DNA from: Perna viridis
Lineage: Eukaryota
DNA length: 64,000 bases
Direction: 5' to 3'
NCBI GenBank assembly: GCA_037379345.1
Contig: CM074514.1
Coordinates: 50,096,001-50,160,000 of the forward strand
Position numbers and translations under genes: made by a program. A model generated the notes under the pieces. It was not told the origin of the DNA and did no database searches. It worked only from the letters and a program-made list of their open reading frames with translations. Below, one piece after another: positions 18,101 through 50,586 of this stretch. Every line of letters starts with the position of its first letter. Position 1 is the first letter of the stretch.

Positions 18101-21100
18101 CATTTTAAATGGAATAACTGCCCAAACATTTAGAGTTTCCAGTGATTGGGAAATTTTTCAGAATGGACTTTTTTTCTGATGATTTCAGAATTTCAATGGA
18201 CTATTCAACATCACATTTCAGATTTTAATGGAACATTTTCAGCTGGAGTTAATGGCCCTTTTAATGCCAATCACTGAGTTCACATTATTCAGCTTTCATT
18301 ATAAAAAATATGGGAAAATTAGAAAATACTTTGTGCTATTTGTTAGTATTTTCTCAAGGTTTTTACAATCAAAAAGTCAAATCAAATTACCTGAAATTTA
18401 ATAATTTGGCTTAAACGGAAATAGTTGATGCCTGGTACATTGTATTTGAAGACTTGAGTGACACAATTCTGAAATAGAGAGCATTTTTCAAATGCTCTTA
18501 TAAATGTACCAGATAACCACCATTAAATGTTGACTAGTATTAGTTATAACATTGTCTTACAAAAATTGTGTGTAAATTTCAAATATGCTGTTGTCATCAA
18601 TTCATTTTTTGCTTTGTGCTTAGATGCATTTTAGATGTTAAGTATTCCTTTCTTTTCGATCCATTAGTATTATAAACTAGATGTTGTTATTCAAGTTGGT
18701 AATGAATTTTTTTCCCCCGTGAAAAGGAACAGTGGTAACAAGAAATTTTAGTTTTTGTTTTCTTTTTACAGACCATAGTGGCCCAGCTCCCATGTCGACC
18801 AGGTGGACTGTCCTGTGTTTAGATATGAACTATATCCTGTCCATGTATCTTAACAGAAAATTTTCATACACTAAAAATGTTAAACTTTGTGCTAATATGA
18901 TGGTGAAAAATATTGCTACAAGTGATATTTTGTATGAAGTTGGTAAGTAGTCTTAGAAACTTTTTTTTCTATTGATATTGATCAGCCACCATTTCATATC
19001 GACAATAAAGTACATTTAATGATTTTTACTAATTTTTACGTACTTCTGTTATTTAAGTAATTCACTACCTGACATCCCAGTTTTATCTCAATTGCTAATT
19101 ACTCTCACTTGCCCAAACCTTGTTTTTAACCCATTGTGCTAGGTTCTTAGCAAGTTCAGTCTACTTATGCAAGGTAAAATTTACTGCAACAATTGGTGGT
19201 AAAGAATTTCCACTGCTGAAACGTAAAATCCACAGAATATCTATTGCCATGCAGAAAAACAAACAAAAATAGAAAAAAGCAGAAATATTATACACTTGCC
19301 TTTTGAGACGTTGCTTTGGTTTACCAAAATCTGTACACTCATCCACACATTGAGTAAGAACTTAAATGTTTTGAGGCTTTTAATCATTTGACCCATTTTT
19401 TTTCTTTGTGGATTGATTAAGAAATCTTATTTTTATTTTTCATTGTTTTCAAATTTATTGAACATTAAATATAAAAAAGTTGGGACAGTCAGGCAGTTCA
19501 TGCACCACTGCATCAGTGTAGTTGTTTATTACAGGTTCTACCTGCTGTAAATTTATTGCTGTTACTTATTGTTTATACTGTTGAAGGTATGACTTATGAC
19601 CAAGCTAAGAAAGCTGGAAGGCTATCCAGTGATGTTACACCCATGCCCAGAGATCTTGCCTTCCCTGTAGGCAAAAGTGAAAAATGGGATGATCTGTATG
19701 ATCTGATAAGGTAAGGCAAACCACTATGTTGATGCGTTGGTTAGTATGGGACAACTGTGTGCAATTTTTGCCTAATGTTGTCTGCGTACAAACTGAATAG
19801 GTTTTTCTTCTTGTTTGCTCCCGTGTAAAATTTTAAGTTTTTGGGCAAGAACATGTTACCCTAGCTGCCCCTATCGTTTTTAGCTTTTGATGGACAAGCA
19901 CTTATTTCTAACACTGGTCCCAGTAAGTTCATGTCCACTACTAGAAACTACATAGGCAGAAGTTGATTTTAGATCTTTCGGGAATGACTACAGTATTATA
20001 CAGGATAAAAGATTCGACCTGCTATAACCTGGTTAAATCCATCATTTCCATTGGAAATGCTTGTCCCCCAATCTGGACCATTGGGTGGTTTCTGAGTTTC
20101 TGATTTTTACCTTGACATTGCCATTTGTTGCACAAACATTCCATTTTGACTATTATTTTTGATTATTGCCTAGAGTGTATCAGTCTGGTTATTTTGTAAT
20201 TACCCTTCATTGCATTAGAACTGGGTATTGAGAGAGAGGATCTGATAGATCAATTATTTTTTGTTTTCAAAATCACTTACATATACATGTATCCAGAGAT
20301 TCATACAAATTATGAATACATGTGAATGTAGTATAAATGGTTCAGTGTTTTGTTATTTTGACAGATTTCCTAATGAAGGAACCAGAAAGCCATTTGATTC
20401 CATTCAGTTTGAAAATATTGAAAACTCAGCAGGTAAGTCAGTGTTTTGTGAGGTTTCATGTTTCTATTTGATTAATTACTAAACTTAAAAATTTAAGGTC
20501 TAAGTTGTATGGAGCAATGAACCTTGAAATTGTAGGGTTCAAGACCGTTGGGACAATGAACCCTACATTTTCAGGGTTTAAGTCAGTTGGAGCAATAAAC
20601 CTTGAAAGTCTAGGATTCAAGTCAGTTGGAGCAATGAACCTTGAAAGTTTATGATTTAAGTCAGTTGGAGCAATAAACCTTGTGAAGGATTTTGAAAGAA
20701 CCCTCGTAATAGGAAATACCCTTTTCATGTGTGCAGGCCTATTGACTGCTTCCCAATTTCACTCTTATTAAAGTTATATTTCAATTCTACTGGTACATTT
20801 TAGTTGAGCAATTTTTCATAGCATGATGAACTTTATAATTTAGGGATTGTGCATCATGTCATTTACTGGACTGATACAGGTTGTACAACATATTCAATAA
20901 TGTTATATGTTTTTTTCAGAAGAATCTTCTATTAACTCATCCCATCGTGTATCTCCCAAGAAAGTGGACGTCAGTAAATGTGTATCTGAGAGAATCTCAA
21001 TTATTCACAATATGACTAAACCAAAACCAGTAAGTTTTCAGTTCTACATTTAAACAGATAATTTTCTCCTTTTTACTATACAGACTGTTTTAACCTGCTC

Positions 21101-24100
21101 TGATTTATTATACTCCTGCTCCTAATGAGAGTGGTATACTGTTATACCCTTGTCCATGTTTCCGTCCATAACTATTTTTATTAGTTTTTTTTATCCATGA
21201 ATAAGTAAAATGTTTGATTTTTTATAAAACTAAATCACAATGATACAAATGTCCGTTATGTAATTTAATTGTGAAGTTAAATAATATATAACTGGAATTT
21301 AACTGACTATCAGATTTTCACAAGAGGCCAAATAAAATTGTAATCATAAAATTCATTTTGACCTAAAGAAGATTGAGATTATTGAGTTGCCCAAGTACTC
21401 TACTGATTGCAAAATTTAGCTTCAAGGAAAATAAAGTACGGGTGTAAAATATTTGTTCTGATAAGGGCTATTCCAGAAATAAATTAGGGGGAGGTTAGGA
21501 GACTCTGAAACATCTAAAAATCTGTCAAACCAAACTCTGAAACATTTAAAACCTGTCTTAATCAAACTGTAAAACCAGTTTACTTTTTAAAGTCTCTTTA
21601 TTTCAATGAAAACTTATTACCTGTCTAAATGGAAGACAATTTGTGACCCAAAAAGGGATCAGATTAGATAAGTTTAACTGTGTAAATAGTAATATATGTT
21701 TTCACATCGCTTGAAAAATTTTAAAAGGTTAATACTTTAAGGAAAAAAAGAATGATTTTTTCCCATATATGATGATCTGTCTTTGTTCTAGATATATCCT
21801 TATCATAATTATTAAATTTTATTTCAAATGACAGAAGCCGATGAAAAGGATACAAGTGACAAAAGAACTACCGATGATTGGAGTAGACAATGTTGACATT
21901 CACCGAGATGAGGAAGGCGAGATCCATGTATTCGCTCATCCTACTGACGATGTTGTTATACATCAAGATGATAAAATTTCTGGAGAGGTAAAATTTTGAT
22001 TAATTATATCATCAAAAGTGTTCTTTTTTTGTTTTTGCTTATTTTTATGGATTCTGTATAGGGAAAAGTTTATATTGTAGCATTATTAAGGAGTTCTTTT
22101 TCACATTGCTTAATTTTGTGGATTTCTTGATAAACTATTTGTTGGCAACCAAGTATTTTTGTAATTTAACATTAAAACATCATTAAATAATAATAAGCCA
22201 CTCCTTGGTTGGATTTGACAATAAATTTGTTCTAAAAGAAAAATACATCTTACCAGGTTAATGTTGTGTAGGCTTATATTCACCCATTTGCTTTTGTCAT
22301 ATATTTAAGCCAAATTTTTGGAACTAGTATGAAATATTTGAAACTGATTTCTACCCATGTAGACTTTAATACACAAATATAAAGCTGTGAATATTGTCTG
22401 ACATTAGAAACTTGTTTTAGATGCAACAGACTGCCCTCTCAGAAATTGCAAGAATCTTTCAATGTCAGGAAAAATGACTTTTGTTATGCTTAGTTATCTG
22501 GTTATCAAATGACAGATGATTTGAATATTGTGTGATTATTTTCAAAGGCCTGTATGGAGCAGAAAGTAAGATAGAAGCAAATGTGTAACATGAAATATAT
22601 ATCCAGGCCTTTTTTTTCTTTTATTTTTCAGTCAGTGAATGTTCAGAAAATACAAGGAAATGCATATGTTCCTGCTATGAAGCCAAACTATACGGTAACA
22701 ATCTAATACATATGAAGTCAAAAAACCAAAAAGAAAAAAATAGTATAGAATCAACATTCTGTGTGCTCAATCTTAATACATAAAAATTCCAGAAACCTTT
22801 TAGTTTTAAAGGCCAATGGTGACAGAAGAAAAGTTTGCATAGTAAAAAAGACAACTGAAAAATAATGCTATTCTTGTAGATTTTAATCTGCTGCACTTAT
22901 CTTGTCTGTCTAGTATAATTTATTCAAATAATTCATTCATTTGTACTAAAAATTATATACATGCATGTTTTCTTCCAGTATTGACAACTCAATTTTTTTA
23001 TTGTCTACCCATTTTATTTAAGTTTACCATTTAAAATTGATTTAGGCTCCAGGAAGCCTGTAATTTTGCACCCATGTTGTTAGGGTTAATCATCGAATCT
23101 TTATTTTGCAGGCTTTAGAACCTGATCCCATTATGAAACTGAGGAGAATTGTAGGTTTTGGTGGAGCTACCTTCAAAGATGTAAGTCAACTTTAATCTGT
23201 CTTTGTATTACTTATATTATACATATGCTTGTGAAGTTTATTGGATTGTACATCTTGTTTATTCTTAAAAAAAGATGTGGAAATTTGATATCATGCAGAA
23301 GAAAAAAATTAAAAGTATCTAAGTTGATACCTACATGTATGTTTATAATTGTAACTTTTTCATACATTGCAGTGTCAAAACTTCTTTAGTCTTAGACATC
23401 ATTTTTGTTACCAGTACCATGTTGCACTTATTCCTAATTTCAGTACTATAACTATATTGATTTTCACAAGTTCTGTGAAGGGAGCATATATTTCTTTTCC
23501 TGATGTTCTCTAGCACTTTCAATTAAAAGACAGGGTATAATATAAATGAGTTTTACCGATAAACAGAAGCTTCTAAAGTAAATGTACCATTGTACAAGAA
23601 ACTGCTTTTTAACATTTTAGTTAGAATTAATATTTATTTACAGGCACTGTGGTCTGTAGATGGGTCCACTGTGGTATACCCCTGTCATGCTGTTGTTGTA
23701 GCCATGAAGGTTTCTAATGGTCATCAGAGATTCTTCATTGGACATACTGACAAGGTAAGCATGGGAGGTAACTATATCACAATGTGATTTGACATGCTGA
23801 CAAGGTAGGCATGGGAGGTAACTCTATTTTTATGTTATTGTTGGTACTGTGTAGGCATTTGAGGTAACTTTATCTTACAGCACACACAATGATGATGTTT
23901 TGGGAATATCTTTATTCAGTTATTGATTAAAGACAATATCCTAATGAATATCCTGACAATTTTTGTTTGTAATGAATCTATGCCCCAGAATCCCTACCCA
24001 TTCAGTTGGATTTTCCACTGATAGATTATTGTACCCCTCAATGAAATTCTGAGATTATTTAAAAATGATATTTTAATTTTTTTGTAGGTGTCATGTATCA

Positions 24101-27100
24101 GTATGACTGGGACCAGTACAATGTTAGCATCAGGCCAAACAGGGAATCTGAGTGTTGTCCGAGTGTGGAAGTTTAATACTGGAGAATGTTTAGCCATGTG
24201 TAAAACACATGTACATTCACTCAACTGTCTGAGGTATGATCTTATGCTAGATTAAAGGTTTTGTGATATTTGGGCAGTGTGATAAAACATTAGTAAAAAC
24301 ATTACAGAATAAAAAATACAATAAATGTAACCTAATTTTTCCTGAAAATTAATTTTATAGATGAGGTTTCAAATAAAAAAGTGCTAAATCATTTTAGCTC
24401 ACCTAGCTCAAAGGGTGATTTAAAAACTTTGTTGGTGAATAAGAGATAAAATTGCAGTCTTTGTTATTTTAAAAGTTAAGATGATATTTTTGTTCTTCAT
24501 GGTAGTTATGCACACAAAGGAAATATGCTGTGTGGTGTTGGGAAAGACAGTCAAGGTAAAAATGTAAGTATTTTTTAATGCATACAAGTGTTTTCAATTT
24601 TCATTGCTAAACTTTCAAATAATTTGTTTTCATAGTCCAAACTTCATGGAAATATCTTATCTCATTATAGTAACTGCACAATTCAGGAAATGTAATGTAT
24701 TCTGTTAAAGAGTTGAACTTGTATGTTACAAATCTGGTAAAGGCAACACTTCTTGCACCTAATTAGTTTTTAATTCAACTTAATGAGTTGGTTAGTTATT
24801 GAGTGAAGACAGCTTGGCATTTTTAATTTCTTGCAAGGGGAGGTAACCCAACTTACAGACTTAAATACTTTAAATTCAAAACTTGAACTAAAGTGGAGCC
24901 GGATAATTTTCTTCGATAATAAGCTCTCTCACAGTATTTTTAGTTTGAATTGCTACAAGTTATTTATAACTTCCTATGACAACCAAAGTAAAGGTCAAAT
25001 AAATACACTATATTTTTTATTGCAGATGGTGGTTATTTGGAACACCTCTAGAGTTATGAAGAACAGAGAGATATCTGTGACAGCTAAAGCTCACACAGAT
25101 GTTGACATTGTACGACTAAGAGTGTCTCCATTTGATGATACTAGGTAATAGAATAGAAGAATACTAATGAAAACTTTTGTCATGTGATATTTATTTCGTC
25201 AGAAGCAAAGTATCACTACCTTCATATGTAATGTGAAGAACCATACTGATTATTAAGATCAATGGTCAATGTCTTGAAAAGAATTTGTACACAGCTTAAT
25301 GTTTCATGCATTGCATTATCTGTGCAAGAGTAATCAAGGGAACTTAGATTATAGAGGAAATCAAAAGGATGAAACCCAAGGCCAAAGACCAGAATAGGAA
25401 AACAGACATACACAACCAAGAACATTTTGTAGTTTATTAATTGAAGTGAATATGATCCCTAATGTCTGTTTCTAGAATGGCTTCCTGCGGACGGGATAAC
25501 ATCAGATTATGGCGAGTGAAGGAGGGCCAGCTCCGTTCAGCACCTGTCAACCTCGGTGAATACCATTCCATGGAGTTTACTGATGTTGCTTTTGAAGCAG
25601 GTTATCATGCCGACAGAGATCCATCAGATAGACTTGTGTAAGTTTGGACAATATTTCCTTCTTTGTAACTTTTGAGAGGTCAGGCTAAAGAAAGGAAAAA
25701 GGACAGTCCTAAGTACAATAGTATTTCCTAGGGATTTAAAAGAAAATTGTTAATATTTGTTTGTTTAATTGTACCAAAAACTATATTTCATTATTAAAAC
25801 TTTTTACAACTTTGTTTTCCATCTGAAGTGAATAGAAAATAAATGAGGAATTCCATTTTGATTTATAGCTGTATTACATGTATGAAAATAAAATGCAACA
25901 ACCTTATAGATGATATAGATGATATAATGATACAGTATATTAATTCATGCTAACGGGATGATGGACAGCTAAGGGCGGGAAGTGGGATTCATTGGATGAT
26001 TTCTTTTCATTGTCGCTTTTTGAAATTGGGGAGGAATGTGGAATCTGCTACCCTTCCTGTTCATCCCTAATTAAATAGCTGTCTTTATCAAGGAAAAATA
26101 GTCATAGACATTTCATACATTTATCTGTGCCCTTATCACAACAAGTCAGGGATGCATAGTTTTATCTTTGTCTATCATTTTGTCATCCTGCAACAAACGG
26201 TTTTACAGACTTTTATTCCTAAACATTTGTTTTTATTTTAGTTATGCATGTAGTAGATCAGGACACATCTTTGAGATAGAGTTGCAGAAAGTTGCCATAC
26301 GCCATGTCAGACGATTATTGCCTAATACGAGTAAAACAAAAGATAAAGATAAACAAACTTTCAGATCAGGTAATTGTTTTATGAATGGAAGTAATATGAA
26401 ATACTTGAGGCCAACTAAAATGATTTTCTTGTTTCTCTTTTAGATACTGTTACAAATTTTATTGTTTGGGTACCTATTTAAATATTCTTTTTTGTGTTTC
26501 AGTCAAATCGTGAATTCCTAACAAATGTAAAATTTCAATTGAAAACTTTAATGGTCTTATGAACTCAAATAATTAAGAAATTCACAAACGAAAAAAATTG
26601 ACACCAATAATCAAAAGTATGGCCTATGTAATATCATGTTTAATACATTATCATATATAGAAGTATGGCCTATGTCATGTCATGTTTAGTATACATTATC
26701 GTATATAGAAGTATGGCCTATGTCATATCATGCTTAGTGTACATTATAGTATATAGAAGTATGGCCTTTTCATATCATGTTTAGTACACATTATTGTATA
26801 TAGAAGTATGGCCTATGTCATATCATGTTTAGTATACATTATCATATATATTATCGTATACATTATCGTATATGTTTTCAATACTGAAATAAAGTTGAAT
26901 TCATATTTTGTTTAAAAAAATAACAGAAAACTTGCATTTCACTATCATTTTCCATGTTTCACGGTGCATTAAACAACCTCTGTGTGACTTCCTATTTACA
27001 TTTAAAGAATGTTATTTTTTAGGTCCAGGTATAGGATTAAACTGTATGTCTGTGAATGAGACTTTCTGTGTCACTGGTTCAGATGATGGATACCTCAGAC

Positions 27101-39100: not shown

Positions 39101-42100
39101 AAATAACACTGTAGTTACAATGTGTAGAACACTTTTTTGTATATTTTCTAGGTTTTAGCATCAGCCAGTGGTTCATTTGGAATCTCACCTAGTCAGATCT
39201 GTATCTGGGACATACAACAACAAATTTGTAAAAACGTTCTTAATTACCATGAACACGATGTACAATGTCTGGCCTACTCCAGAGATGATAGATTTCTGAT
39301 ATCTGTTGGTAAGTGTCAGAAATAATGCCCGTCGTGGTTAATTTTTTTCTAAAAAATTTTCTCTTCTGACTCTATGTGACCAAGTAGAACCAAACTTGCT
39401 ATGAATGTTTCTTACAGTGTTCTGCATAGAACTGTTGTGGGATTTTTGATGTGTCGAAAAACATGGCTCCCATTACTAAAAATAGATTATAGGGGTCAGA
39501 CAAAAGTTTTGCATATATCTCCAAAACTGTAAGGTTTAGGCAAATTCTGACACAGGTAACAATGTTCAGCCTGATGAGATTTATCTGTGGTCAAATTTTT
39601 TTTGTTAATGTTAAGCCATGTTGAAGTTATTGCCCAATTTTTGACGTTTTTTTTTTCGCTTATTTTAATGTCATTATTAAAAAACAATTTTCTTCTCAGA
39701 AACTACTGGACAAAATTTAATGAAAATTGATATGATTGTTTTTTAAGTATGAGCATTAGGAATTTGTATCCAAGAAAATAAAATTGCTCTTTTCAAAAAA
39801 TAGAATGTGCCTTAGTGGGCCAGGTGAGGGCAACTCAGGCTCTTTAGAGCCTCTAGTTTGTTTCAGAGCTATTGAAAAAGGGGGAGCAGCATATAATGTG
39901 TTTAAATCTATCTGTTTATTTGATTTTTTGAAACTTATAAACTTTGGTTTTCAGGTGATTACAGGGATTGTTCTATTGTGGTCTGGAGTACCAATAATTA
40001 TGAAATCTTGACATCTTCCCATGCAGCCAGTCCAATCAATGAACTCAAGTGGGACCCCTACACTGTTAATGAGTTTGCCTCTGTTGGACAGAATGGAACG
40101 GTCTTGTTTTGGTTACTTGATGAAACTTCTACTGATATTTGCCTAAATGTTCATGAGGCAGAGGTACCAGAAGAACTGCTTCAGGGGCACCATAAGGTAG
40201 TTAAACAATGGGAATAGTCAATTATAGATACTGTTTATTTGGATACATTTGTGACTAACAGTAAATACGCTTTAAATGCATACAGTGAAACCTGTATCAA
40301 GTGAACCTGTTTGGACTGTAGAATTTGGTAAAGACTGGTATTCAATTCTCTAAGGTTCAAAATAATTTTAAATTGATATGAAGGGATTTTATGAAGCTCC
40401 TGGGTTTCAACATTTTTTTGGTTTATTCAGCGTTCAGTTTAGAAAGGTTTTACTGTATCACATATCATCCAATTTATAATGATAAATAAATTAATCTTGA
40501 AATCATGAATATTTTAAGAATTGGTACTAATTATTTACATGCATTTGGAAAAGCTAAAGGGACTTAACTCATGTCTTTTAATGCTTTCTTTCAGGACAGT
40601 GATTCTGTTGACTTCACAGCAATGGAGTATGCAGGGGACAGCACTCTGTATATCTCCACCAGTTCTGGGAAGATTTCTGCCTGGGACACTCGACACAATA
40701 CCTGCTTCATTCACTGGGAAGCTGACAGTTCAGAAATAGGTTGGTATTAAATAGGTAAAAAGAAAGGTTGATGATTTATTCAACCCCCCCACCCCACACA
40801 CTTCAGTTGGGAGACATATTGTCTTAAGTCCTATCTAACTGTTGGTTGGTCTGTCTGTTCATCATATTTATTTAAGTGCCACTCCTTAGAAACTGCTTTA
40901 CTGAAATTCATGAAACTTGGAAGGTAGTGAGGACATTATATGTAGTTGTGCATATTACCAGAAAATGTTGGTTGTTTTATTCTTTTGGGAGTTACTCCCC
41001 TTGTACTTTGTAATTTTATGAAATATGTCACTGAAGCAGATTGCAAGCAAAAGTATTAAAATGACAGTTAGCTTGAACACTGACATGTAATTCACCTTCT
41101 TAACATGAATTACACTTTACTGTCATTTATTCATCTGTAGATGTGATTATGTGCCGCAGTGGTAGACTACTGACAGGAAGTGCTGGTAAAAACCTACGAG
41201 TGTGGTCAGTAGTTGGTGTAGGAGAGCTGAAGTTACCAGGAGATCACTACAATATGAGAACAGACGGCCTGACCATGGAGGATGAAATGAACCTGGATGG
41301 GTCTATTGTTACTGCTGCCTTTGATGAGGCTCTGGATATGGTATGTATTAAAATATGGTGATACCTAGCTATGCTAGCTTCATTTCTGGTTTGGTTCTTT
41401 GTAATAACTGTCTTTGATGAAGCTCTGAATATGGCATGTATTAAAATATTATGTTTCTGGTTTGGTTCTCTATAGTATGTGGTAATGATTATCATTAAAG
41501 AAGGAATATAAAAAAAATAGATTTTAATAGTTCTATGTAGCAAGTTTTTATAAAAATAAGTTTGATTTTAACGACAATGTATCGCAGCTAATGCAATTAG
41601 ATAAAAGTTGACTTTGTAAACAGATGTCAAAGTAAAGAAAACATTGAATAAGCATGTGTATGTCATTAAAAACTGCATGGATGATTTTCTTCTGATATTA
41701 AGTAGAATTCTGCTTTTTCAAACACTTCTTTTACCATTATGATTCTATTTTTAATATCTTATAAAATAGTTATTGTCAACATGTTCCATTCAATTTAAGG
41801 GCATTGTGGGAACAAATACTGGAACACTGTGGTACATCAATTGGCCAGAAAGGACCAGTATAAGATTGGTATCTAGTCACATGGCTAAGGTAAGTGGAAG
41901 ATAAACTCAAATAATAAATGAGTACAAATATTACTTATGAGGAATAACAGAGCTTTTGACAGACAAATGGAAACATATGATACCAAAAAAATACAACTCG
42001 AATGCTTACAAGCTTGCACGTATCAAGTTTTTCCATGTACTTTGAAAGTTAATTGTATTTGAAAATGCTATTTAGCAAAGTACACAAATCTTTGTACAAG

Positions 42101-45100
42101 TTTTTTCCATTTGAGATAGAGAGCCCCCTCTTGTCATTGTCAAATGCTAGACCAAGAGTATTAACTTTCCATGTAACAATGCACAGTTTTGTAAGTAGAC
42201 TCATCCTCCTTTCAGGTGAACAATCTATCTATATGTAATAGTGAACATTTTGCCTCCGGTGCTGATGATGGTAGTGTAAGAGTTTGGTCCCTTGACAGCC
42301 GAGAACAGACTTTACAGTTCCAGGTCTTAGACCAGGTAATTATTAAAGAGATAAGAATAGGGGAAATGTTCATGAAACTTTGTAACAGGACTCCTCAGTT
42401 GGCATACTTTCAAAATGGTTAGAGTTAGGAAATCTTCCAAGTGGTTGTGGTCTTTGAGTAGGGCATCAAGCTGTACAAAGGCTCTTCAGTAAGTGTACTT
42501 TCAAGATGGTTAGAGTTTAGGAACCATCCGAGATAAATTTGGGAACTTGTTAGAACATCAATCAGTAATATACTATAAGAGGATACAGCCCAGTCAACAA
42601 TGTAGAGTATGCCCCTTGATGTGCATGAGTAATTGTATGTCATCACTGAAAAATATTTTTTACATTTCTTCATCTGTACAAGAAATTATAGAACTAGTGT
42701 CCAGTGTTCTAAATGTTGACTTTTGTTGCACAGCTTTGTTACCTTGATTACACAGAGTAATTCTTATTTGAGAAGTATGACACTGAGATTAAAAGGTCAA
42801 AAGTTGAGGTCTGATGTACATAACATGCAGTAAGTTTGACTTGACAGATTTTAATTTTAATAAAAATTGCACAGACATAATCATAATCTATAAGACATTA
42901 TTCATTTTGGAAAAATGGTCTAAGCTCAGTGCTACTCTTTCTTAAGTATTTTATTTACTTGCTGGAAACTTAGAGCTTTGCTCTTTTGTGTATTGCAAAA
43001 AAAAGATAATAAGATTAAGTAGGGTCTTACTTCATACACATTATCCATAGTAAGTGGAGTTAGCTTCAATATTATTTTTGCCATTTGTGATTTTTTTAGG
43101 CATGCACATGTATAGACTTCTCCCCTATAAAACAAGATGGTATCATTAAAACTACAGTCAGTAACACCTCAGCTGCTGCTGTCACCTCCCACCAGAAGAT
43201 TGATGTAAACTTCATGCCCCTGCTTGCTGCTGGATACAGTAATGGAACAGTCCGAGTGTTTGATATCAACAAAGCTGAAATGATACTGAAGATGCATCCA
43301 CATGCTGTTGCAGTAACTGCCCTTAAATTTTCTTCTGATGGTATGTATTCAATTATTGGAAACAATGTGTAATCGGGGCAAAACTATTCGTTATGCACAC
43401 TTAAACCATCATACATTACTGCTTATTTACAAACTGATAGATTGATTGATAGTTGATTGTTAGTGTTAAAAGCCAAAGCAGCAATATTTCTGCTTTATCC
43501 AGGCAATGAACATGAAATGATGATGAAATGAAAAATGGGATGGGACACAAGAATAGTAGGGCCAACAAATTTTGATTTCCACTAGAAATAGAGAGAGTGG
43601 GTAGGGTGAGGCAATTTAGCTGCCTAAGGAGGAGTGCAAAGGTTCACTCTCCTATAGAGTACCACTGCAGAGTTCCCAAGAAACATGGCATCTCTCCCAA
43701 CACACTGCATGACCATAATTTGCAATCAGATTTTCCATATCATAGCCTAACAACCCCCTAGAATATAGCATGCCAGGGATACATGTACACACACTTGTTG
43801 TTGTATACGCTTAAACCACCATGTAATTTTACTTGGGATCTCAATGGTATGTTATCAGTAATACTTGGTTGACTATTTTGTAGAATCATATTCAATTTGA
43901 TACTTTATTACAATATTTACAAAAATTTTCATTGTTTATAATGTTTTCTGTGATAAATATTGGTGTCAATTATAAGATTGTTTCAGGATAAGTTAACCAG
44001 TTGCCGACCTTGCCCGTTTGTGACAGCATTCTAAAGTATTTAGTCAAACATATGCCTGATTTTATAATTTATATTTCAGGGCGTATGATTTTAACAGGAG
44101 GAAGTGATGGACTCATTGCCATTAGTAGTCCAACCACTGGGATAACAGTCCGTGTAATCTCTGACCACAAGGGGGCGCCAATCACAAACATTGATGTGAC
44201 CTTGTGTCAGGATCTGGAGTTGACCGTCTCTGCCTCTCAACTCTGGTTGGCAGCCAGTGCTGATAGGCGTGTGAGTGTCTGGTCCGCTGATTGGTCAAAG
44301 GATGTTTGTGAGCTTGTTGATTGGCTAACTTTCCCTGCTCCTGCATTCACACCAGATGGCACTGTCATAGCTAAACAAGATCAAAAGGTGATAAATATAG
44401 CATTTAGTTTTTTATTTATTATATTTGTATTGTGTATTTCTTGATACAATATATTTTTTTATTTTCGGGGCATTTCTTACTTGACCTCTTTAGACTGCTT
44501 TTCTGTATGTCATTTTACACTTAGTCAGCTAAGATACATTACATGTAGGTACATGTATTAACACACATTATTATATAGATAGCAGTAATAAACCAAATGT
44601 TCCCAGTGTAAAAATTGTCGATATTTCACTTAAAAAAAATTCTGTAATTTCATTCTTGGGCTTTATTCCGCCAAAACATCACAACAAGAATATCAAACTG
44701 CCGTTCACAAAGTTCGAAATTTATATTAAAAATCGCAACCAACAATGGCCAGGATAATAAATAACCAAAATATGATCACATGTACACGCAGTGAGATTTA
44801 ACAGTCCTCATTAAATCTAGGGTTTGTCTGCACTTGTGATCATATTTTGGTTATTGTCCCTGGATAACTTTCTTTTGATTTCCGCTACAACCTTGGTTCC
44901 CTTGATTACTCTTTCCAACTAATTATCCTGTTAGTAAAATAATGGCAAAATTGTTTCAAGTTCTGTTTTTAGGATAATGATTTTCTGTGTTCAATATGAT
45001 TTTTTTTTCTATTCCAGATTTCAACTTATCATTAATTTCATTCTGTATATTTACTTCAGTATTTGTTTTTGTTAAGAATGAGGCAACTACATTTGAAAAA

Positions 45101-47404
45101 CTTTCATAAATATCATTTCAGGGTATATATAGCCAGTTGCCTCCAAGTTTAGCCAAGTTTTCTCCAGAAGAACAAGACATCATTATATATGTAGGTTATG
45201 GTATGGAGAAATGTGTACAGTATTACAGTATGTCTGAGAGAAAGGTAGGAATCAGAATAGTTTATAAAGCTTCAGGGGTTAGTGGTGGGGGCTTATTGAT
45301 TAACATAACTAATGCATATAGTTGTATATATAGAGATATTTTTACTAGTTAAAGTTTTCGTAGGTGTCCAGGCCATTAGCATGAACAACACTTGATGCAA
45401 TAAATAGTATAGAGTTACTGTATAAGTTGAGTTTGAGGTACATATAGCAAATCTAAGTGATTTTAAACATTAAACATCACATTTATAATACTTGAGTCCT
45501 ACTTATTGGTTTAGTTCAGTAATGAAATCATTGTTTAAGTGAGTGAACAACTTGAACACATGGAATTTGTATTATTCTTATTCAATTTTTCTATTTAATT
45601 TCCAGGTGACTAGAACTCAAGCTCTTACTCATTGGCCAACATGTCTTGATGTCTGTCCGTCTACAGCACTCTTATCACTTGGTGCTAATGGTAATTACAC
45701 AATTTTTTTAAGTATGTTAGGGAGCTAACTTTGGTTGAATCCACTAATTATTCCCATGGCCAATAGACATTGAAAAACTGGAGGTATATCATGATCATAC
45801 TGTCTATTAGTCCCCTGTTTTCACCTAGAACTAGCTACCTTGGTGGTGTTGGAGTCAAGTGCTCGCCTTTAGTGCAGGATGTCATGGATTTGAGCTGAAT
45901 CGCATGGAAGACTTCAAAATTGATAGTCACTGCTTCTCAGCCAAGAACACAGTATTTAAGGAGATAGGGTGACGATTGGTTGGCATGATGTCATTAATAT
46001 TTGAGTGGGGTGGCATGCCTACCTGCAGGCTGTTACTTCTGTATTATGTAGCACAATAGTGATCCAGCTCTAGTATAATGAATGATCTATTCAAATGTTC
46101 TCGTCCTGAAAGGCATGAAATATCTTCCCTAATCAATCCATCAATCAATGACACTCCACAGAAAATGCTCAATGGAATTCAATGAAACTTTTTCAAATAA
46201 TCACATTTCCATCTGAATGACTTATGTGGTTTCATGCATTAAAGGAGGTTGGGTATTGCCCACAGTATTTCTTGTCTGTAATTATTAACAACTTTGAACT
46301 TTAAATAGCATCTTGAATTTCAATGATTTCCATATAGCAAACTTTTTGTGTTGGGGCATATCTTAAATGGATAGGCAATATAAGGCCTCATCCTAAATTC
46401 TTGGTTGAAGTGAACTGTGCTATGGATTGATGTCAACATCTTCTTTAAATAGCTGTCTTCGCAAGAATCATGCAAAGTCTGAAAAATGTGATATACCCCA
46501 AAAAAGGCTACTTATTTTTATTTTTGTAATTAAGTTGTTTTATGGGTCTATACTATAAAATGTGTAATTATTCCTTCAAATCTGCCTGCTTTTAGGAGAT
46601 AATCAACATTGAAAATCCAGTAGATTTTATTGTATTTTAGCGTCATTTACAGAGTTATCTCCCTTAATTTTGAAATCTACAGTGCATTCTATATAATTTT
46701 TATCTCCTAAGAGTACAGGTTCTTTGAAAAACCACATGTTAATTTTTGTTTACTATGACATTTCAAACAAAATATCAAAAATAAAAATATGTAAGCTTTT
46801 TACTCATGAATCACATCTTGCATGATCCTTAGCTGGAGTGCTACTTAAAATGCTTTTATTTTCTAAAGTCACCATTGCAAAATGTAACTACAATGAATGG
46901 GAATTTGTGAACCATTGTTAATATGACGATGATATTTGTAGTGACAAGGATGTAATTATATATATGTTTTGAATTCAAGCTTCCGCCTTAGTTGGATAAT
47001 TGTATTTATTTATAGTACTTCATTTTCACTTGTCATTTGATAAATTATTTTTTGAAAGACATTGATACCAATGTTTTTTTCCAAGAAATCATATCAAAGT
47101 TTTTGTAGTTACATCATTTTATGAAAATGATTTAAAATTTTAATGACAATAAGACAGTATGCAGTCATGTACTGGCAATTTATTAATATTTATTGATATA
47201 CTGAACTTAAGTTCGTTTGATTTCTACTAAATAATTTTCTCTTTTTCAGAACGTGTGATAAAACTGATGGATTATTATGAAGGAAGTTTCCAAGATTTTA
47301 TAGGTCACAGTGACTCAATAAATTTTGTTAAATTTTCTCCAGACAGTAAATACCTATTGACAGTATCTCATTCTGAAATATTTATCTGGGAAGTTCAAGT
47401 GTGA
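15100..47404 (+). CDS. WDR90: WD repeat-containing protein 90 (centriolar/ciliary, POC16 orthologue); 42 coding exons, 5670 nt, ~1889 aa
   Basis: The spliced translation matches recalled WDR90 throughout: WQHPYVNVFKHF, SLGLSGRYFYLLF, RISFSNLFKEFKSTSTWLQFP (CFA20/DUF667), EPDPIMKLRRIVGFGG, YPCHAVVV, FFIGHTDK, AKAHTD, GSDDGYLRLWPLDF, LKSIIGYNGN, DWLTFPAP, QDFIGHSD. All introns are GT-AG with consistent phases. Confidence 0.95.
15689..15930 (+). mobile_element. tRNA-derived SINE family, body and tail fragment
   Basis: Core ATACCAAAGACTTTAAAAATGGTAGTCACTGCTTCTC...GACTGGTT...ATAATGTGTC...CTAGCACAA, shared with ~16790-16965, ~31940-32050, ~38060-38142 and 45838-46150. Confidence 0.7.
16630..16721 (+). 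CDS. WDR90: WDR90 exon 2
   Basis: WQHPYVNVFKHF...TTAM|gtaagt. Confidence 0.9.
17032..17200 (+). mobile_element. CR1/L2-type LINE RT fragment
   Basis: KSGDDDVNNNCPVSVLTVVNKIIERHV, then (frameshift) ENNLISTCQTGFRSKHSCET, i.e. the NYRPIS...QSGFR..HS.ET motifs. Confidence 0.75.
17658..17970 (+). CDS. WDR90: WDR90 exon 3
   Basis: DKNVKCSVYKISGS...WLQFPFLC. Confidence 0.9.
18772..18942 (+). CDS. WDR90: WDR90 exon 4
   Basis: HSGPAPMSTRWTVLCLD... Confidence 0.9.
19587..19710 (+). CDS. WDR90: WDR90 exon 5
   Basis: ...VTPMPRDLAFPVGKSEKWDDLY. Confidence 0.9.
20365..20432 (+). CDS. WDR90: WDR90 exon 6
   Basis: FPNEGTRKPFDSIQF; phases 2/1 fit. Confidence 0.85.
20505..20685. repeat. 39-bp minisatellite, about 4.5 copies
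   Basis: GTCAGTTGGAGCAAT at 20582, 20621 and 20660. Confidence 0.9.
20920..21029 (+). CDS. WDR90: WDR90 exon 7
   Basis: ESSINSSHRVSPKK...; NAGNAG acceptor. Confidence 0.75.
21835..21987 (+). CDS. WDR90: WDR90 exon 8
   Basis: KPMKRIQVTKELPMIG...EIHVFAHP; NAGNAG acceptor. Confidence 0.75.
22632..22694 (+). CDS. WDR90: WDR90 exon 9
   Basis: SVNVQKIQGNAYVPAMKPNYT; strong polypyrimidine acceptor; symmetric exon so it could be skipped. Confidence 0.65.
23112..23180 (+). CDS. WDR90: WDR90 exon 10
   Basis: ALEPDPIMKLRRIVGFGGATFKD. Confidence 0.9.
23644..23754 (+). CDS. WDR90: WDR90 exon 11
   Basis: ALWSVDGSTVVYPCHA...GHTDK. Confidence 0.92.
24088..24233 (+). CDS. WDR90: WDR90 exon 12
   Basis: VSCISMTGTSTMLASGQ...VRVWKF. 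Confidence 0.9.
24506..24563 (+). CDS. WDR90: WDR90 exon 13
   Basis: YAHKGNMLCGVGKDSQGKN. Confidence 0.9.
25026..25144 (+). CDS. WDR90: WDR90 exon 14
   Basis: MVVIWNT...AKAHTDVDI...FDDTR. Confidence 0.9.
25476..25637 (+). CDS. WDR90: WDR90 exon 15
   Basis: MASCGRDNIRLWRVKEGQLRSAPVNLGE. Confidence 0.9.
26242..26369 (+). CDS. WDR90: WDR90 exon 16
   Basis: YACSRSGHIFEI...RRLLP. Confidence 0.9.
26615..26872. repeat. ~48-bp minisatellite, about 5 copies
   Basis: AAGTATGGCCTATGTCATATCATGTTTAGTATACATTATCGTATATAG. Confidence 0.9.
27023..27139 (+). CDS. WDR90: WDR90 exon 17
   Basis: PGIGLNC...GSDDGYLRLWPLDF. Confidence 0.92.
27499..27569 (+). CDS. WDR90: WDR90 exon 18
   Basis: HEGPVTAVDFSSDGLHILAGTCS. 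Confidence 0.9.
28020..28125. repeat. 25-bp minisatellite, about 4 copies
   Basis: AAAGTTAACAGAAGTCCATTTGTTC. Confidence 0.92.
28224..28388 (+). CDS. WDR90: WDR90 exon 19
   Basis: GNLGMLDV...RSHT...SEDHTIRVWD. Confidence 0.92.
28741..28880 (+). CDS. WDR90: WDR90 exon 20
   Basis: LYDFSAPSECPCCISYHPS... Confidence 0.9.
29304..29565 (+). CDS. WDR90: WDR90 exon 21
   Basis: QHRGKIIGLSFAPTG...AFIGPS...SLDE. Confidence 0.9.
30417..30593 (+). CDS. WDR90: WDR90 exon 22
   Basis: VLRIDIST...LDSAM...HLLVTT. Confidence 0.9.
31022..31150 (+). CDS. WDR90: WDR90 exon 23
   Basis: VNNIHRSGCSTL...TIKIWDY. Confidence 0.9.
31443..31570 (+). CDS. WDR90: WDR90 exon 24
   Basis: VFIGHSE...LLSVGEAVYMWDFL. Confidence 0.9.
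31493..31865 (+). repeat. 89-bp tandem repeat made of the exon 24 3' half plus splice donor, 4 copies
   Basis: CCTCCTGAGTGTTGGAGAGG starts at 31502, 31591, 31680 and ~31769 (3-bp deletion in the last). Confidence 0.95.
32117..32163 (+). CDS. WDR90: WDR90 exon 25
   Basis: GREVKETPFPFMDKT; bridges phase 2 to phase 1. Confidence 0.75.
32225..32445. repeat. ~67-bp minisatellite, about 3.3 copies
   Basis: AGGGATTAGTAATTTATTTATCATTTT..CACATATATATGTCATAACTAGGTTATAGACAAAGGAT. Confidence 0.9.
32743..32921. mobile_element. MITE, same family as 4312-4506, opposite orientation
   Basis: TIR CTATGAAAGTACT / AGTACTTTCATAG between TA dinucleotides. Confidence 0.8.
32953..33120 (+). CDS. WDR90: WDR90 exon 26
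   Basis: SVDDIVNVEYQELPRTPPKP... Confidence 0.8.
33318..33403 (+). CDS. WDR90: WDR90 exon 27
   Basis: TESSDKEDIVLRGPEIQDRYDGGSDTDS. Confidence 0.75.
34360..34665 (+). mobile_element. Helentron-associated (HINE-like) non-autonomous element
   Basis: 5' AACTCACC.AGCCCAAAGGGCCT hairpin and (GTC/GTT) microsatellite; 3' CAGGTGAGC...GCTTTAGAGCCTCT next to a T tract. Related copy at ~39325-39860 and a 5' stub at ~24392. Confidence 0.55.
35117..35830. repeat. 81-bp minisatellite, about 8.7 near-identical copies
   Basis: GACCTTGC recurs every 81 bp from 35132 to 35780. Confidence 0.97.
36033..36224 (+). CDS. WDR90: WDR90 exon 28
   Basis: IGSGSKF...KKRTPVKKKR...RPSCRKHF...LAQ. Confidence 0.75.
37369..37471 (+). 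CDS. WDR90: WDR90 exon 29
   Basis: RRYIAPPNQAGIQLKSIIGYNGN...WHSDT. Confidence 0.9.
37771..37923. repeat. 38-bp minisatellite, 4 copies
   Basis: AGCCTGGATCCAGAGATCCTTGGAAACAGGCAAATATC. Confidence 0.95.
37953..38027 (+). CDS. WDR90: WDR90 exon 30
   Basis: LFIYTAGCILIIEDLNTGQQKHLT. Confidence 0.9.
38828..38874 (+). CDS. WDR90: WDR90 exon 31
   Basis: (G)HTEEISTIALQNDCQ. Confidence 0.9.
39152..39308 (+). CDS. WDR90: WDR90 exon 32
   Basis: VLASASG...QICIWD...LAYSRDDRFLISV. Confidence 0.9.
39325..39860 (+). mobile_element. HINE-like element, same family as 34360-34665
   Basis: Shares AGAACCAAACTT..TATGAATGT...GTGTTCTGCATAG and the 3' end CCAGGTGAG...CAGGCTCTTTAGAGCCTCTAGTTT. Confidence 0.55.
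39955..40196 (+). CDS. WDR90: WDR90 exon 33
   Basis: DYRDCSIVVWST...WDPY...VLFWLLD. Confidence 0.9.
40283..40455. mobile_element. Tc1/pogo-like MITE
   Basis: TA|CAGTGAAACCTGT ... AAAGGTTTTACTG|TA. Confidence 0.75.
40595..40739 (+). CDS. WDR90: WDR90 exon 34
   Basis: DFTAMEY...ISAWDTRHNTCFIHWEAD. Confidence 0.9.
41141..41340 (+). CDS. WDR90: WDR90 exon 35
   Basis: RLLTGSAGKNLRVWS...FDEALDM. Confidence 0.9.
41800..41889 (+). CDS. WDR90: WDR90 exon 36
   Basis: GIVGTNTGTLWYINWPERTSIRLVSSH. Confidence 0.9.
42216..42335 (+). CDS. WDR90: WDR90 exon 37
   Basis: HFASGADDGSVRVWS...LQFQVLDQ. Confidence 0.9.
43100..43340 (+). CDS. WDR90: WDR90 exon 38
   Basis: ACTCIDFSP...AAGYSNGTVRVFD...KMHPH. Confidence 0.9.
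44080..44387 (+). CDS. WDR90: WDR90 exon 39
   Basis: ILTGGSDGLIAISSPTTG...DHKGAPIT...DWLTFPAP. Confidence 0.9.
45122..45244 (+). CDS. WDR90: WDR90 exon 40
   Basis: LPPSLAKFSP...YVGYGMEK. Confidence 0.88.
45606..45690 (+). CDS. WDR90: WDR90 exon 41
   Basis: VTRTQALTHWPTCLDVCPS. Confidence 0.88.
45838..46150 (+). mobile_element. tRNA-derived SINE, near full-length degenerate copy
   Basis: tRNA-like head (TGGTGGTGTTGG...GGATTTGAG), the shared core and a (TCAA)n tail. Confidence 0.65.
47250..47404 (+). CDS. WDR90: WDR90 exon 42 (last coding exon, TGA stop)
   Basis: RVIKLMDYYEGSFQDFIGHSD...IFIWEVQV*. Confidence 0.92.
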
Positions 47405-47585
47405 TAGACACACTCTGAAATATTTATCTAGGAAGTTCAAGTTTGGTAGACACACTCTGAAATATTTATCTTGGAAGTTCAAGTGTGATAGAAATACTCT
47501 GAAATATTTATCTGGGAAGTTCAAATGTGGTAGACGTGGTAGACACCTTCTGAAATATCCTTCTAGGAAGTTCAAGTTGATAGAT
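47372..47585 (+). repeat. 42-bp tandem repeat made of the last WDR90 codons plus stop, 5 copies
   Basis: TCTGAAATAT at 47372, 47414, 47456, 47498 and ~47549. Confidence 0.95.
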
Positions 47586-48362
47586 TGTGTCTCTTTATGT
47601 TGATTAAAGGAAATGCAGGAAATAATTTCTCTGGAAGAACAGGAAATCTGTGATTGAATTGTATTGATTTTACTGGCTGTCAAGGTATTGAGATAAAATG
47701 AACAACTTTTTTGTATTATTAAGTTTATTTGTAGAGTTGTGGCTCATAACATTGACAAAAATGAGGCAGTGTATTATTGCTGCCTGTCTGTCTGTTCACA
47801 CTTCATTTAATAACTCTCAAAGTGTTCATTTCTCACTTTCAATATTAATTTTGAGATTGTTTACAAGAGTAAAAACAGTTAATAATTATGAACAGATGTG
47901 ATGTTTTTTGTTCACCCCACATGGCTAAATATTGAAGTACTAGTATTTTGGTCTACAAAGTGAAAAAAATCTCAAATTATTACAATTATAAACCAATTAT
48001 GGTTTACAATTATAAAACATAAATGATCAGAATTTTCCGTCCAGCTTAAGCACATTGTTGTTTTTTATTTGTTATTGTCTTGTGATTTGTGGTTTTGCGA
48101 AATTTTGTCTTAATTATTTGTTTTATTTTGTATTTCTCTTTTGATTAGATCTTTATGAAAATAGAGTTAGATTTCCAATAAGTTTTTTTTTCTGTCTGAA
48201 TGTTGATGAAACGCAAAGATTGGTATCCATCAAAGTAATTCAGTTCACAGAAAATTATGTTTAAGTTAATAGATTTAGTGCTAAGCTTCTTTACTGTTGT
48301 ATCACAACAATGTAATAAATGTTTTGTTTTTGAGTAAAAGTTTATATTATTTCTGTGTAAAG

Positions 48363-48967: not shown

Positions 48968-50586
48968 TTACATGAGTTCCATACAATGAATTTTTATATC
49001 AGCGTAACATCCAACCCACTATTTACATTCACGATCAATATCAATAGTGGTTGGATACTCAATCCCAATGGCCTCCTCGATCTGATGACAGACAATGACC
49101 TGTCCAGACTGGTTCAGTATATGTATGTATATATTCAACCAGTCCGTAACAAGAACCATACCCGTAGAGGTCACTGTGAAGTCAAAAGAAAAAAATTGAT
49201 CTCCTTCTACTTGACATAAACCACTATATACCCACTTGATTTGTCCCCTATAATCCAGTGCCACCACCCTTCCCTTCTTTACTTCACCTAAAGAACCAAT
49301 GTCTTGTGTATCAATAACTAAGATAATATCATTACAGGTAACAATCCTACATGGCCAGGTAAACAGTCTCTGATTGTCATTGTCATAATCATAGGTATGT
49401 TTTATGTCACCTGACTGATTCAGAACCACAACTTTTCTGACACTCGTGGGTTTGACATCTATATTCCCTGATTCAGTCAGTCCTACTACTAGTTCCTTTT
49501 GTTTATTTATATGAACCCTAATGTCTTTAATGGAGAGAATGATTTGAAGGTTTTCAATGTTCCATCTTTTTTATACAGCATTAAATTTTTATCCTTTGTT
49601 GATAAGTTCCCGATTCTCCTTCATTGTCATGTCATTTAGTTTTATATCTTCTGTTTTCTTCACTATCCTCATTATTAAACTGAACTGTTTGTAATTTGTT
49701 AAATTCATATGCAATGAATTTTGTCTTACCATTACTTGAAATTATTTTATAATTCCCTTTCAGTTCAGTTTGATAAGATTTCAATAACTTCAATGTGGGA
49801 ACTTTACAAATGTCACCAAATACTTTACTTGATGACAAATCCGAGATGTCACGGGGAGTGAATTTTATAAGTGTTGGATATATTTCATTGGTTGTTATCT
49901 CAGGTAACCATGTTTTCAAAGACGTGCCTAATGAGAAAACATCTTCAGCCAAGTGGGAACTCAGGACCTTCTCTTGTTCATCTTTCTTGGGTGAGAGGGC
50001 ATTTAGGTTACTTTTTGTCAAGGTTAGATCATCTTGTATTGGATTGAACATGGATTCTAGCTGTTCCAGCATGTCATGTGTAAATCAATGGTTTTTTTAA
50101 TATCTTCCTCGTTTTGCAAAATTTTAAGGTTTTGTTATGTCATAGTGTTGTTTTGAGTCAGTGTATACTTTCTGGATTTTGTCTTCATGTGACTTCAAAT
50201 GGGAGAACTGCTCATCGACTGCAACTTTGAACTCTAATCTTTTCAAGTAAATCTTCATAACTGCTCCAAAGATCATCAGTGTCACGAGATTTATGTGACT
50301 CTTTATTGCAGAGGGCACAAATTGCTACAGTACAGGACACGTTTCCTACTGTTATGTTTAGAGCAGGTAAGTTGCCCAGGTTCACTCTACGTTGTCTCTC
50401 TGCAGCGTCATCTGTTCCTGCTTCCTGATAGTTGATTATCTTATGCCCTTTTGAAGATTCAATTTTAGAATGTATGTTATTAGAGCATAATTGACACAGA
50501 TACAGGTTACAATCAATACTTTTCCAGCATATCTCAGATTTATGACAAAACTGGCACTTGGCAGGACTCTGGGCTCTATCAACCAT
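48968..50586 (-). pseudogene. Disrupted intronless B-box / coiled-coil / NHL beta-propeller (TRIM2/3/71-like, RING-less) gene
   Basis: B-box CQFC...C..YLCQLC...HSKI...GHKII. NHL-like C-terminus RLFTWPCRI...VVALDYRGQIKWVYSG...VLVTD...IHILNQSGQ. Split over several frames, with an in-frame TAG in ...DRECK*WVGC. 5' UTR acceptor near 50712. Confidence 0.8.

What the first reader, a model, noticed from the sequence alone, without database searches (positions are those of the whole stretch)
23744..47585. Recurrent 'exon-edge echoes': five independent tandem duplications straddling WDR90 splice sites or the stop codon
Seen: short tandem duplications containing exon sequence plus the adjacent signal occur at the exon 11 donor, exon 20 acceptor, exon 24 donor, exon 35 donor and the stop codon. 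Units are about 40-93 bp, unrelated to each other, and range from near-identical to heavily decayed. In each case the copy contiguous with the rest of the exon is functional and the extras spill into intron or UTR; several extra splice signals are degraded. Inference: a very active local tandem-duplication process, also responsible for the many unrelated 25-81-bp intronic minisatellites here, whose only tolerated exon-touching products are edge-straddling ones. It would supply raw material for splice-site sliding, NMD isoforms or intron gain.
Basis: partly seen in the sequence, partly recalled or inferred. Interest (0 to 1): 0.7.

Follow-up and report, generated by a model that had tools for sequence, protein, structure and literature searches.

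The report
Exon-edge repeats ('mirages') in mussel WDR90
Five short stretches covering the edge of a coding exon have been copied in tandem in a mussel-family WDR90 gene; this known oddity ('mirages') also turns up at about 2 in 100 splice sites of other genes in this genome, mostly at exon ends, and is likely tolerated clutter rather than a control device.

Summary
The five duplications are real: exon 11, 24 and 35 donors, exon 20 acceptor and the stop codon of an intact WDR90 gene (units 42-93 bp, mutually unrelated). Two are unchanged in two other samples. They are 'mirages', already described in amphioxus and in human F7 and CBS; this scan noted single cases in at least ten other windows. 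WDR90 alone is not a significant cluster (4 of 11 arrays at splice sites, 1.6 expected, P=0.07). A control census in 35 dynein and ABC loci of the same genome (1,104 introns) found 207 arrays: 158 intronic, 35 donor, 14 acceptor, none wholly exonic. After correcting for GC and slower decay of the exon copy, acceptors are at expectation (14 vs 16) but donors are twice over (35 vs 17.5). The excess lies in units ending under 14 nt into the intron (16 donors, 0 acceptors; cut-off chosen after the fact). The extra copies show little sign of coding constraint and every tested use gives an early stop. Best reading: neutral duplication filtered by selection, with exon-anchored copies persisting longer. 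Use of the extra sites in RNA is untested; no intron-gain intermediate was seen.

The parts
16620..47404 (+).
23737..23882 (+). Exon 11 donor echo: 50-bp unit (18 exon + 32 intron nt), 3 copies, 82% and 62% to working copy; donor at 23754, extra GT after 23804 and 23850
   Evidence: spanned unchanged by contigs of two other samples
28562..28806 (+). Exon 20 acceptor echo: 82-bp unit (16 intron + 66 exon nt), 3 copies, 81% and 67%; working acceptor before 28741, extra AG before 28659 and 28578
   Evidence: spanned by contigs of two other samples
31494..31846 (+). Exon 24 donor echo: 89-bp unit (77 exon + 12 intron nt), 4 copies, 99, 93, 85%; donor at 31570, two identical extra donors (31659, 31748), fourth lost
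   Evidence: single place in the genome; end of copy 3 and copy 4 seen in two other samples
41290..41449 (+). Exon 35 donor echo: 93-bp spacing (51 exon + 42 intron nt), 2 copies, 68% over the unit; extra donor reads GC
47371..47589 (+). Stop-codon echo: 42-bp unit (34 coding nt with TGA + 8 nt UTR), 5 copies, 90, 90, 86, 79%; not a splice site
20497..20682 (.). Intronic array, 39-bp unit (intron 6)
26615..26850 (.). Intronic array, 48-bp unit (intron 16)
28020..28125 (.). Intronic array, 25-bp unit (intron 18)
32222..32446 (.). Intronic array, 67-bp unit (intron 25)
35117..35829 (.). Intronic array, 81-bp unit, 8.8 copies (intron 27)
37771..37923 (.). Intronic array, 38-bp unit (intron 29)
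42391..42532 (.). Decayed intronic duplication, 91-bp spacing (intron 37)

Best explanation
These are five separate tandem duplications across exon edges ('mirages') that likely have no function: they likely arise from the same general process as the purely intronic arrays, likely survive because the exon-side copy still supplies a complete exon and signal, and likely last longer than intronic duplications because the working copy is held by selection. Steps: (1) shown: 25-140-bp tandem duplications are common in introns of this genome, about 2.5 per 10 kb; the molecular cause (slippage, break repair, unequal exchange) is not shown. (2) Shown as a pattern, selection inferred: products wholly inside exons are absent; acceptor echoes occur only when the unit carries at least 14 nt of intron, that is its own pyrimidine tract; donor echoes need only about 5 nt. 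(3) Inferred from human F7 and amphioxus: the site nearest the exon is the one used. (4) Shown by simulation: a constrained exon copy keeps the repeat detectable about 1.5 times longer. (5) Inferred, least secure: collapse back to one copy is blocked once the extra copy has mutated, unless the break falls in the intron tail, which would explain the surplus of short-tail donor echoes.
For: Census of 35 loci, 1,104 confident introns: 158 intronic, 35 donor, 14 acceptor, 0 wholly exonic (25.6 + 10.9 expected without selection). Short tails (<14 nt): 16 of 35 donors, 0 of 14 acceptors, Fisher P=0.002; long-tail donors and acceptors do not differ (19 vs 14, P=0.49). Extra copies look close to neutral: 128 non-synonymous and 106 synonymous differences in 54 echoes, third positions only about twice second positions, as expected if only the working copy is constrained. 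All 7 tested uses of WDR90 extra sites give an early stop. Age: among two-copy duplications 1 of 26 at >=95% identity is an edge echo (1.8 expected) against 25 of 70 below 95% (9.6 expected), Fisher P=0.0015; non-dispersed intronic two-copy arrays are skewed young against a no-loss simulation (22 of 46, 12.8 expected, P=0.003). No halo of intronic arrays beside edges (9 and 6 within 20 nt, 6.6 expected). Published: only or mainly the first donor is used in F7, LMNB2, PDGF (PMC1557585, passages); mirages do not disturb splicing in amphioxus (PMC3087553, passages).
Against: A twofold donor excess remains after GC and detectability corrections (35 vs 17.5, P=4e-5), fivefold for short tails (16 vs 3.3); the collapse-block idea was not modelled or tested, and the 14-nt cut was chosen after seeing the data, with tails read by eye. 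The age contrast did not replicate for all arrays in the ABC set (8 of 36 at >=95% were edge echoes, 2.7 expected) and holds only for two-copy duplications. Young edge echoes are scarcer than even a no-loss model gives (1 vs 5.9, P=0.011), which collapse-blocking alone does not predict. With dispersed repeats included, the young skew of intronic arrays is weak (P=0.08). The fall of identity with distance seen in 4 of 4 WDR90 arrays is not general (15 vs 8, P=0.21). At twice the odds the ABC set alone is no longer significant (P=0.14). Human 6-16 and CBS do use extra donors (PMC1557585).
Confidence: 0.68

Rival explanations
1. Duplications are born more often across donor sites, for example through nicks or pausing linked to transcription or early spliceosome binding, or through template switching where homologues stop matching at the start of an intron.
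For: Donor excess of 2-fold and short-tail excess of 5-fold are not explained by my simulations; donor units are GC-richer than donor background (0.383 vs 0.354).
Against: Only 1 of 26 young two-copy duplications is at an edge, and it is an acceptor; no excess of intronic arrays next to donors. Both tests are small.
Confidence: 0.17
2. The extra splice sites are used and kept: they feed nonsense-mediated decay or tune WDR90 level.
For: 6 of 8 extra WDR90 sites keep GT or AG, two equal the true donor, and all 7 tested would give early stops; best-matching extra donors are intact in 30 of 35 control cases; extra donors are used in human 6-16 and CBS (PMC1557585).
Against: Intact rates match the overall copy identity (26.7 expected of 35, and the best-matching copy was picked; acceptors 9 of 14 vs 9.8); unit length shows no frame preference (14/9/12 by remainder); little sign of coding constraint; the related transcript P0001 has no insertion at these junctions.
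Confidence: 0.08
3. Chance overlap only: a repeat-rich genome puts some arrays on exon edges, and the apparent excess is detection bias.
For: WDR90 alone P=0.066; acceptors match expectation (14 vs 16.1); anchoring gives 1.5-fold for free.
Against: Donors stay at P=4e-5 after both corrections; both gene families show the excess against uniform placement (31 vs 12.5; 18 vs 7.9).
Confidence: 0.06
4. Assembly artefacts.
For: Contigs of other samples break inside the exon 24 array, so its copy number is not independently shown; the exon 35 and stop-codon arrays were not checked against other samples.
Against: Copies carry private substitutions (62-99% identity); exon 11 and exon 20 echoes are spanned by single contigs from two other samples that differ from the window elsewhere.
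Confidence: 0.01

Closest known systems
Amphioxus 'mirages' (Adh3, globins BflGb6 and BflGb9; Ebner et al. 2010, PMC3087553, abstract and passages read)
   Same: [quoted passage not shown]
   Different: Bivalve host; mostly 2-5 copies and often more decayed; five in one gene; here counted against a null in 1,104 introns. Length instability between haplotypes was shown there, not here.
Human junction-spanning minisatellites: F7 IVS7 (37 bp), CBS IVS13, IFI 6-16, LMNB2 (100 bp), PDGF intron 4 (81 bp) (Borensztajn et al. 2006, PMC1557585, abstract and passages read)
   Same: First unit holds the true donor; following units repeat it; in F7 only the most upstream donor is used.
   Different: The human cases listed are all donors and are polymorphic VNTRs of 5-25 copies; WDR90 has an acceptor case and a stop-codon case, and use of sites is untested here.
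Internal tandem repeats at exon-intron boundaries in human segmental duplications (De Grassi and Ciccarelli 2009, PMC2812944, section 6 read)
   Same: Variable tandem repeats at exon-intron boundaries found by a genome-wide screen (162 alignments before curation, 27 intron modifications).
   Different: Restricted to recent paralogs and to changes of gene structure; the WDR90 echoes leave the structure unchanged.
Intron gain by tandem genomic duplication (review PMC3443670, passages read)
   Same: Short tandem duplication that repeats splice-like signals.
   Different: Needs a purely exonic segment with AGGT and makes a new intron; these units include existing intron sequence and make none.

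Membership tests
Mirage / junction-spanning tandem repeat | Repeat unit spans an exon-intron boundary, first (or last) unit belongs to the real exon | tested here: met
   4 of 5 arrays (exon 11, 20, 24, 35)
Mirage / junction-spanning tandem repeat | Extra units reiterate the splice signal | tested here: met
   6 of 8 extra sites keep GT or AG
Mirage / junction-spanning tandem repeat | Regular splicing uses the authentic site | tested here: inconclusive
   Only the exon-side sites give an open frame; the RNA run laid was too shallow to list these junctions
Mirage / junction-spanning tandem repeat | Copy number varies between haplotypes | tested here: inconclusive
   Exon 11 and 20 echoes the same in two other samples; exon 24 not resolved by contigs
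Mirage / junction-spanning tandem repeat | Boundary is a splice site (stop-codon array) | tested here: not met
   The 42-bp unit spans the stop codon inside the last exon; it works like a mirage but is not one
Intron gain by tandem genomic duplication | Purely exonic segment duplicated, new intron between the copies | tested here: not met
   Splice-site units include intron sequence; 0 of 207 control arrays span both ends of an intron
Tandem exon duplication / mutually exclusive exons | Whole exon with both splice sites copied and kept under coding constraint | tested here: not met
   Only one edge is copied; 128 non-synonymous vs 106 synonymous differences in 54 echoes
Transposon-borne or dispersed satellite | Unit found at other places in the genome | tested here: not met
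   Exon 24 array has one match, itself (the other four not searched genome-wide); 5 of 49 control edge units vs 48 of 158 intronic units hit elsewhere in about 1.6 Mb

The most novel reading that the evidence does not exclude
Exon ends act as one-way traps for tandem duplications: a copy that ends just past a donor cannot collapse again without pulling mutations into the exon, so short-tail donor echoes are locked in and accumulate fivefold over expectation, while the mirror class at acceptors is removed at birth. A mussel genome would then hold thousands of natural competing-splice-site experiments whose shape records how its spliceosome chooses sites.
Probability: 0.3. Interest if true: 0.6.

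Novelty: new member of a known kind. Interest (0 to 1): 0.36.

Why it matters
The single echoes are ordinary. The census is the useful part: about 2.2% of splice sites (49 of 2,208) carry a copy of themselves, often intact, which gives a large natural test set for how one of several identical splice sites is chosen, and a donor/acceptor asymmetry with a testable cause. In my nine answered literature searches I found case reports and one human paralog screen, but no census against a null and no bivalve report; the original amphioxus Adh3 paper and subscription journals were not seen. Practically, echoes give false extra exon hits in gene annotation.

Tried and rejected
No RNA holder was listed for the stretch. 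The one raw RNA run laid gave 167 reads on 10 kb and listed four ordinary junctions, none at exons 11, 20 or 24: no evidence either way on use of extra sites. Other-sample and RNA evidence for the exon 35 and stop-codon arrays is missing. A metagenome scan for a related genomic copy to date the echoes gave one 60%-identical 1.4-kb contig and seven weak hits, not used. 'Born at chance, all old ones at edges' from the dynein set (4 of 43 vs 27 of 73) failed in the ABC set for multi-copy arrays and was narrowed to two-copy duplications. A general outward decay gradient was rejected. Selective destruction of extra GT/AG was not seen. A link to chromosome ends is weak (array density rho -0.26, P=0.14; edge echoes rho -0.34, P=0.05). 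Microhomology at junctions could not be judged (overhangs -31 to +33 nt in 26 young arrays). Rows dropped before counting: 1 of 21 dynein loci not fetched; 91 of 894 dynein and 34 of 335 ABC introns not confident; 4 of 19 ABC regions (two aligned too weakly, one near-copy of another, one with apparent tandem whole-exon copies); low-complexity arrays and periods under 20 or over 200. No structure or complex prediction was relevant.
Full report
Setting. The window lies at G000:C4:50,096,001-50,160,000 of a 723-Mb assembly in 46 contigs. An exon at 17658-17970 finds WDR90 proteins, best named hits from bivalves; an ABC exon from the same genome has Mytilus proteins as its closest named bivalve relatives at 74-80% identity, so the host is likely a mussel-family bivalve. 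I modelled 41 coding exons from 16630 to 47404; they give one open frame of 1,885 codons with 1,665 identities in 1,897 columns to P0001, which carries the WDR90/POC16 Pfam domains. A spliced aligner written here returned 40 of 40 acceptors and 40 of 40 donors with P0001, and 40 of 41 with three more distant proteins (its splice weights come from this gene).

The observation. All five duplications are there. Exon 11 donor: 50-bp unit, three copies. Exon 20 acceptor: 82 bp, three. Exon 24 donor: 89 bp, four. Exon 35 donor: 93 bp, two. Stop codon: 42 bp, five. Identities to the working copy run from 99% to 62%, the units are unrelated, and the exon 24 array matches nowhere else in the genome. 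Six of eight extra splice sites keep GT or AG; two exon 24 copies equal the true donor; all seven tested uses give an early stop. Contigs from two other samples in two studies span the exon 11 and exon 20 echoes with differences only outside them among the rows shown (19 rows were not shown), and hold the end of copy 3 and copy 4 of exon 24 while breaking inside the near-identical copies. The exon 35 and stop-codon arrays were not checked in other samples, but their private substitutions argue against assembly error. RNA depth was about 1, too low to show which site is used.

Is five many? In WDR90, 4 of 11 arrays touch a splice site, 1.64 expected, P=0.066, and the window was picked for this. 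I therefore built a control. Twenty of 21 dynein heavy-chain loci were aligned to proteins: 803 of 894 introns were confident and held 85 intronic, 21 donor and 10 acceptor arrays, none wholly exonic against 25.6 expected; all 31 were inspected. Fifteen of 19 ABC-transporter regions gave 301 of 335 confident introns with 73, 14 and 4, none exonic against 10.9. Pooled, 49 of 207 arrays straddle an edge, 20.4 expected with each gene as its own null; donors 35 vs 10.2, acceptors 14 vs 10.2. That is 2.2% of 2,208 splice sites; four of 80 in WDR90 has P=0.10 at that rate, and one ABC locus has six echoes in 26 introns.

What inflates the count passively? Simulated duplications stay detectable about 1.5 times longer when one copy is an exon under constraint, and intronic units are GC-richer than intron background (0.344 vs 0.303). 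With both corrections 16.1 acceptors and 17.5 donors are expected: acceptors fit, donors do not (P=4e-5). Reading the intron tail of each unit by eye, 16 of 35 donors but 0 of 14 acceptors have under 14 nt (P=0.002); expected 3.3 and 3.2, while long-tail classes are 19 vs 11.8 and 14 vs 11.3. The cut was chosen after seeing the acceptor minimum, and junction microhomology would shorten measured tails, so the size of this effect is provisional. In WDR90 the tails are 32, 12 and 42 nt for donors and 16 for the acceptor.

Birth or persistence? Intronic arrays do not crowd near edges. Among two-copy duplications, 1 of 26 at 95% identity or more is an edge echo against 25 of 70 older ones, and non-dispersed intronic ones are skewed young. 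Against this: the age contrast fails for multi-copy arrays (11 of 53 young ones at edges, 4.2 expected), young edge echoes are rarer than a no-loss model gives, and identity is a poor clock in arrays that homogenise. The extra copies show 128 non-synonymous and 106 synonymous differences and no preference for whole codons in unit length, close to what is expected if only the working copy is constrained; their GT and AG are kept at about the rate of the rest of the copy.

Mechanism. Shown: frequent local duplication, absence of exonic products, tail asymmetry, near-neutral decay. Inferred: an acceptor copy without its own pyrimidine tract leaves the complete signal on the wrong copy and is removed (from established knowledge of 3' splice-site architecture); donors are tolerated because the upstream site wins, as in F7 (PMC1557585); a stop-codon copy is harmless because translation ends at the first stop. 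Least secure: once an extra copy has mutated, collapse to one copy is harmless only if the break lies in the intron tail, so short-tail donors would be locked in. I put 0.68 on neutral duplication with selective filtering and longer persistence, 0.17 on a birth bias at donors, 0.08 on function, 0.06 on chance plus bias, 0.01 on artefact.

Comparison with what is known. Tandem repeats across exon-intron boundaries are named mirages in amphioxus, occur at both edges, and were already proposed as a route to intron gain (PMC3087553, abstract and passages; it was listed and I read it after the lead; its supplements were not opened). Human F7, CBS, 6-16, LMNB2 and PDGF carry donor versions (PMC1557585, abstract and passages). 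PMC2812944 (section 6) screened human paralogs; PMC3443670 (passages) defines intron gain by exonic duplication, which these do not meet; PMC10078293 (passages) concerns other repeat effects on splicing. Earlier notes of this scan describe single cases in sea urchin, annelid, abalone, shark and camelid windows; they are unchecked and were used only as leads. Four of the five echoes are new members of this known kind; the stop-codon array works alike but is not at a splice site. I found no census or bivalve report, which cover open-licence papers only.

Verdict. Observation confirmed, interpretation partly supported, new member of a known kind, interest 0.36; the donor short-tail excess is the part worth following.

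Noticed in passing
window 34156-34173: An 18-nt AG..GT stretch was picked as a microexon by spliced alignment with 3 of 4 proteins but not the closest; low complexity, may be spurious.
   Followed up: partly
window 49019-50600, minus strand: Open frames of 183, 150 and 128 codons tail-to-tail with WDR90; one has a weak B-box hit below cut-off; likely a TRIM-like gene or fragment.
   Followed up: partly
window 25326-25430 and 32740-32905: Short intronic pieces with very high depth in DNA runs, so parts of high-copy dispersed elements.
   Followed up: no
window 17982-18069 and 1027-1466: A decayed 33-35-bp array starts 12 nt behind the exon 3 donor and resembles by eye the 33-bp array at 1027-1466.
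   Followed up: no
   Followed up: partly
L121-L124 (G000:C7:1,958,001-1,998,000): An ABCC gene with six edge echoes in 26 confident introns; in one the exon holds a 10-nt repeat of its own donor region 50 nt upstream, a possible microhomology seed.
   Followed up: partly
L042 (G000:C4, near 21.196-21.199 Mb): A dynein intron holds about 71 copies of a 43-bp unit repeating the acceptor with intact AG.
   Followed up: partly
L145-L150 (G000:C4:34,510,001-34,570,000): An MRP-like gene with several similar transmembrane-domain exons in a row, possibly mutually exclusive exons; left out of the counts.
   Followed up: no
L153-L156 (G000:C4:31.86 and 31.93 Mb): Two ABCC genes with nearly the same alignment scores and exon counts in opposite orientation, likely a recent duplication.
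   Followed up: no
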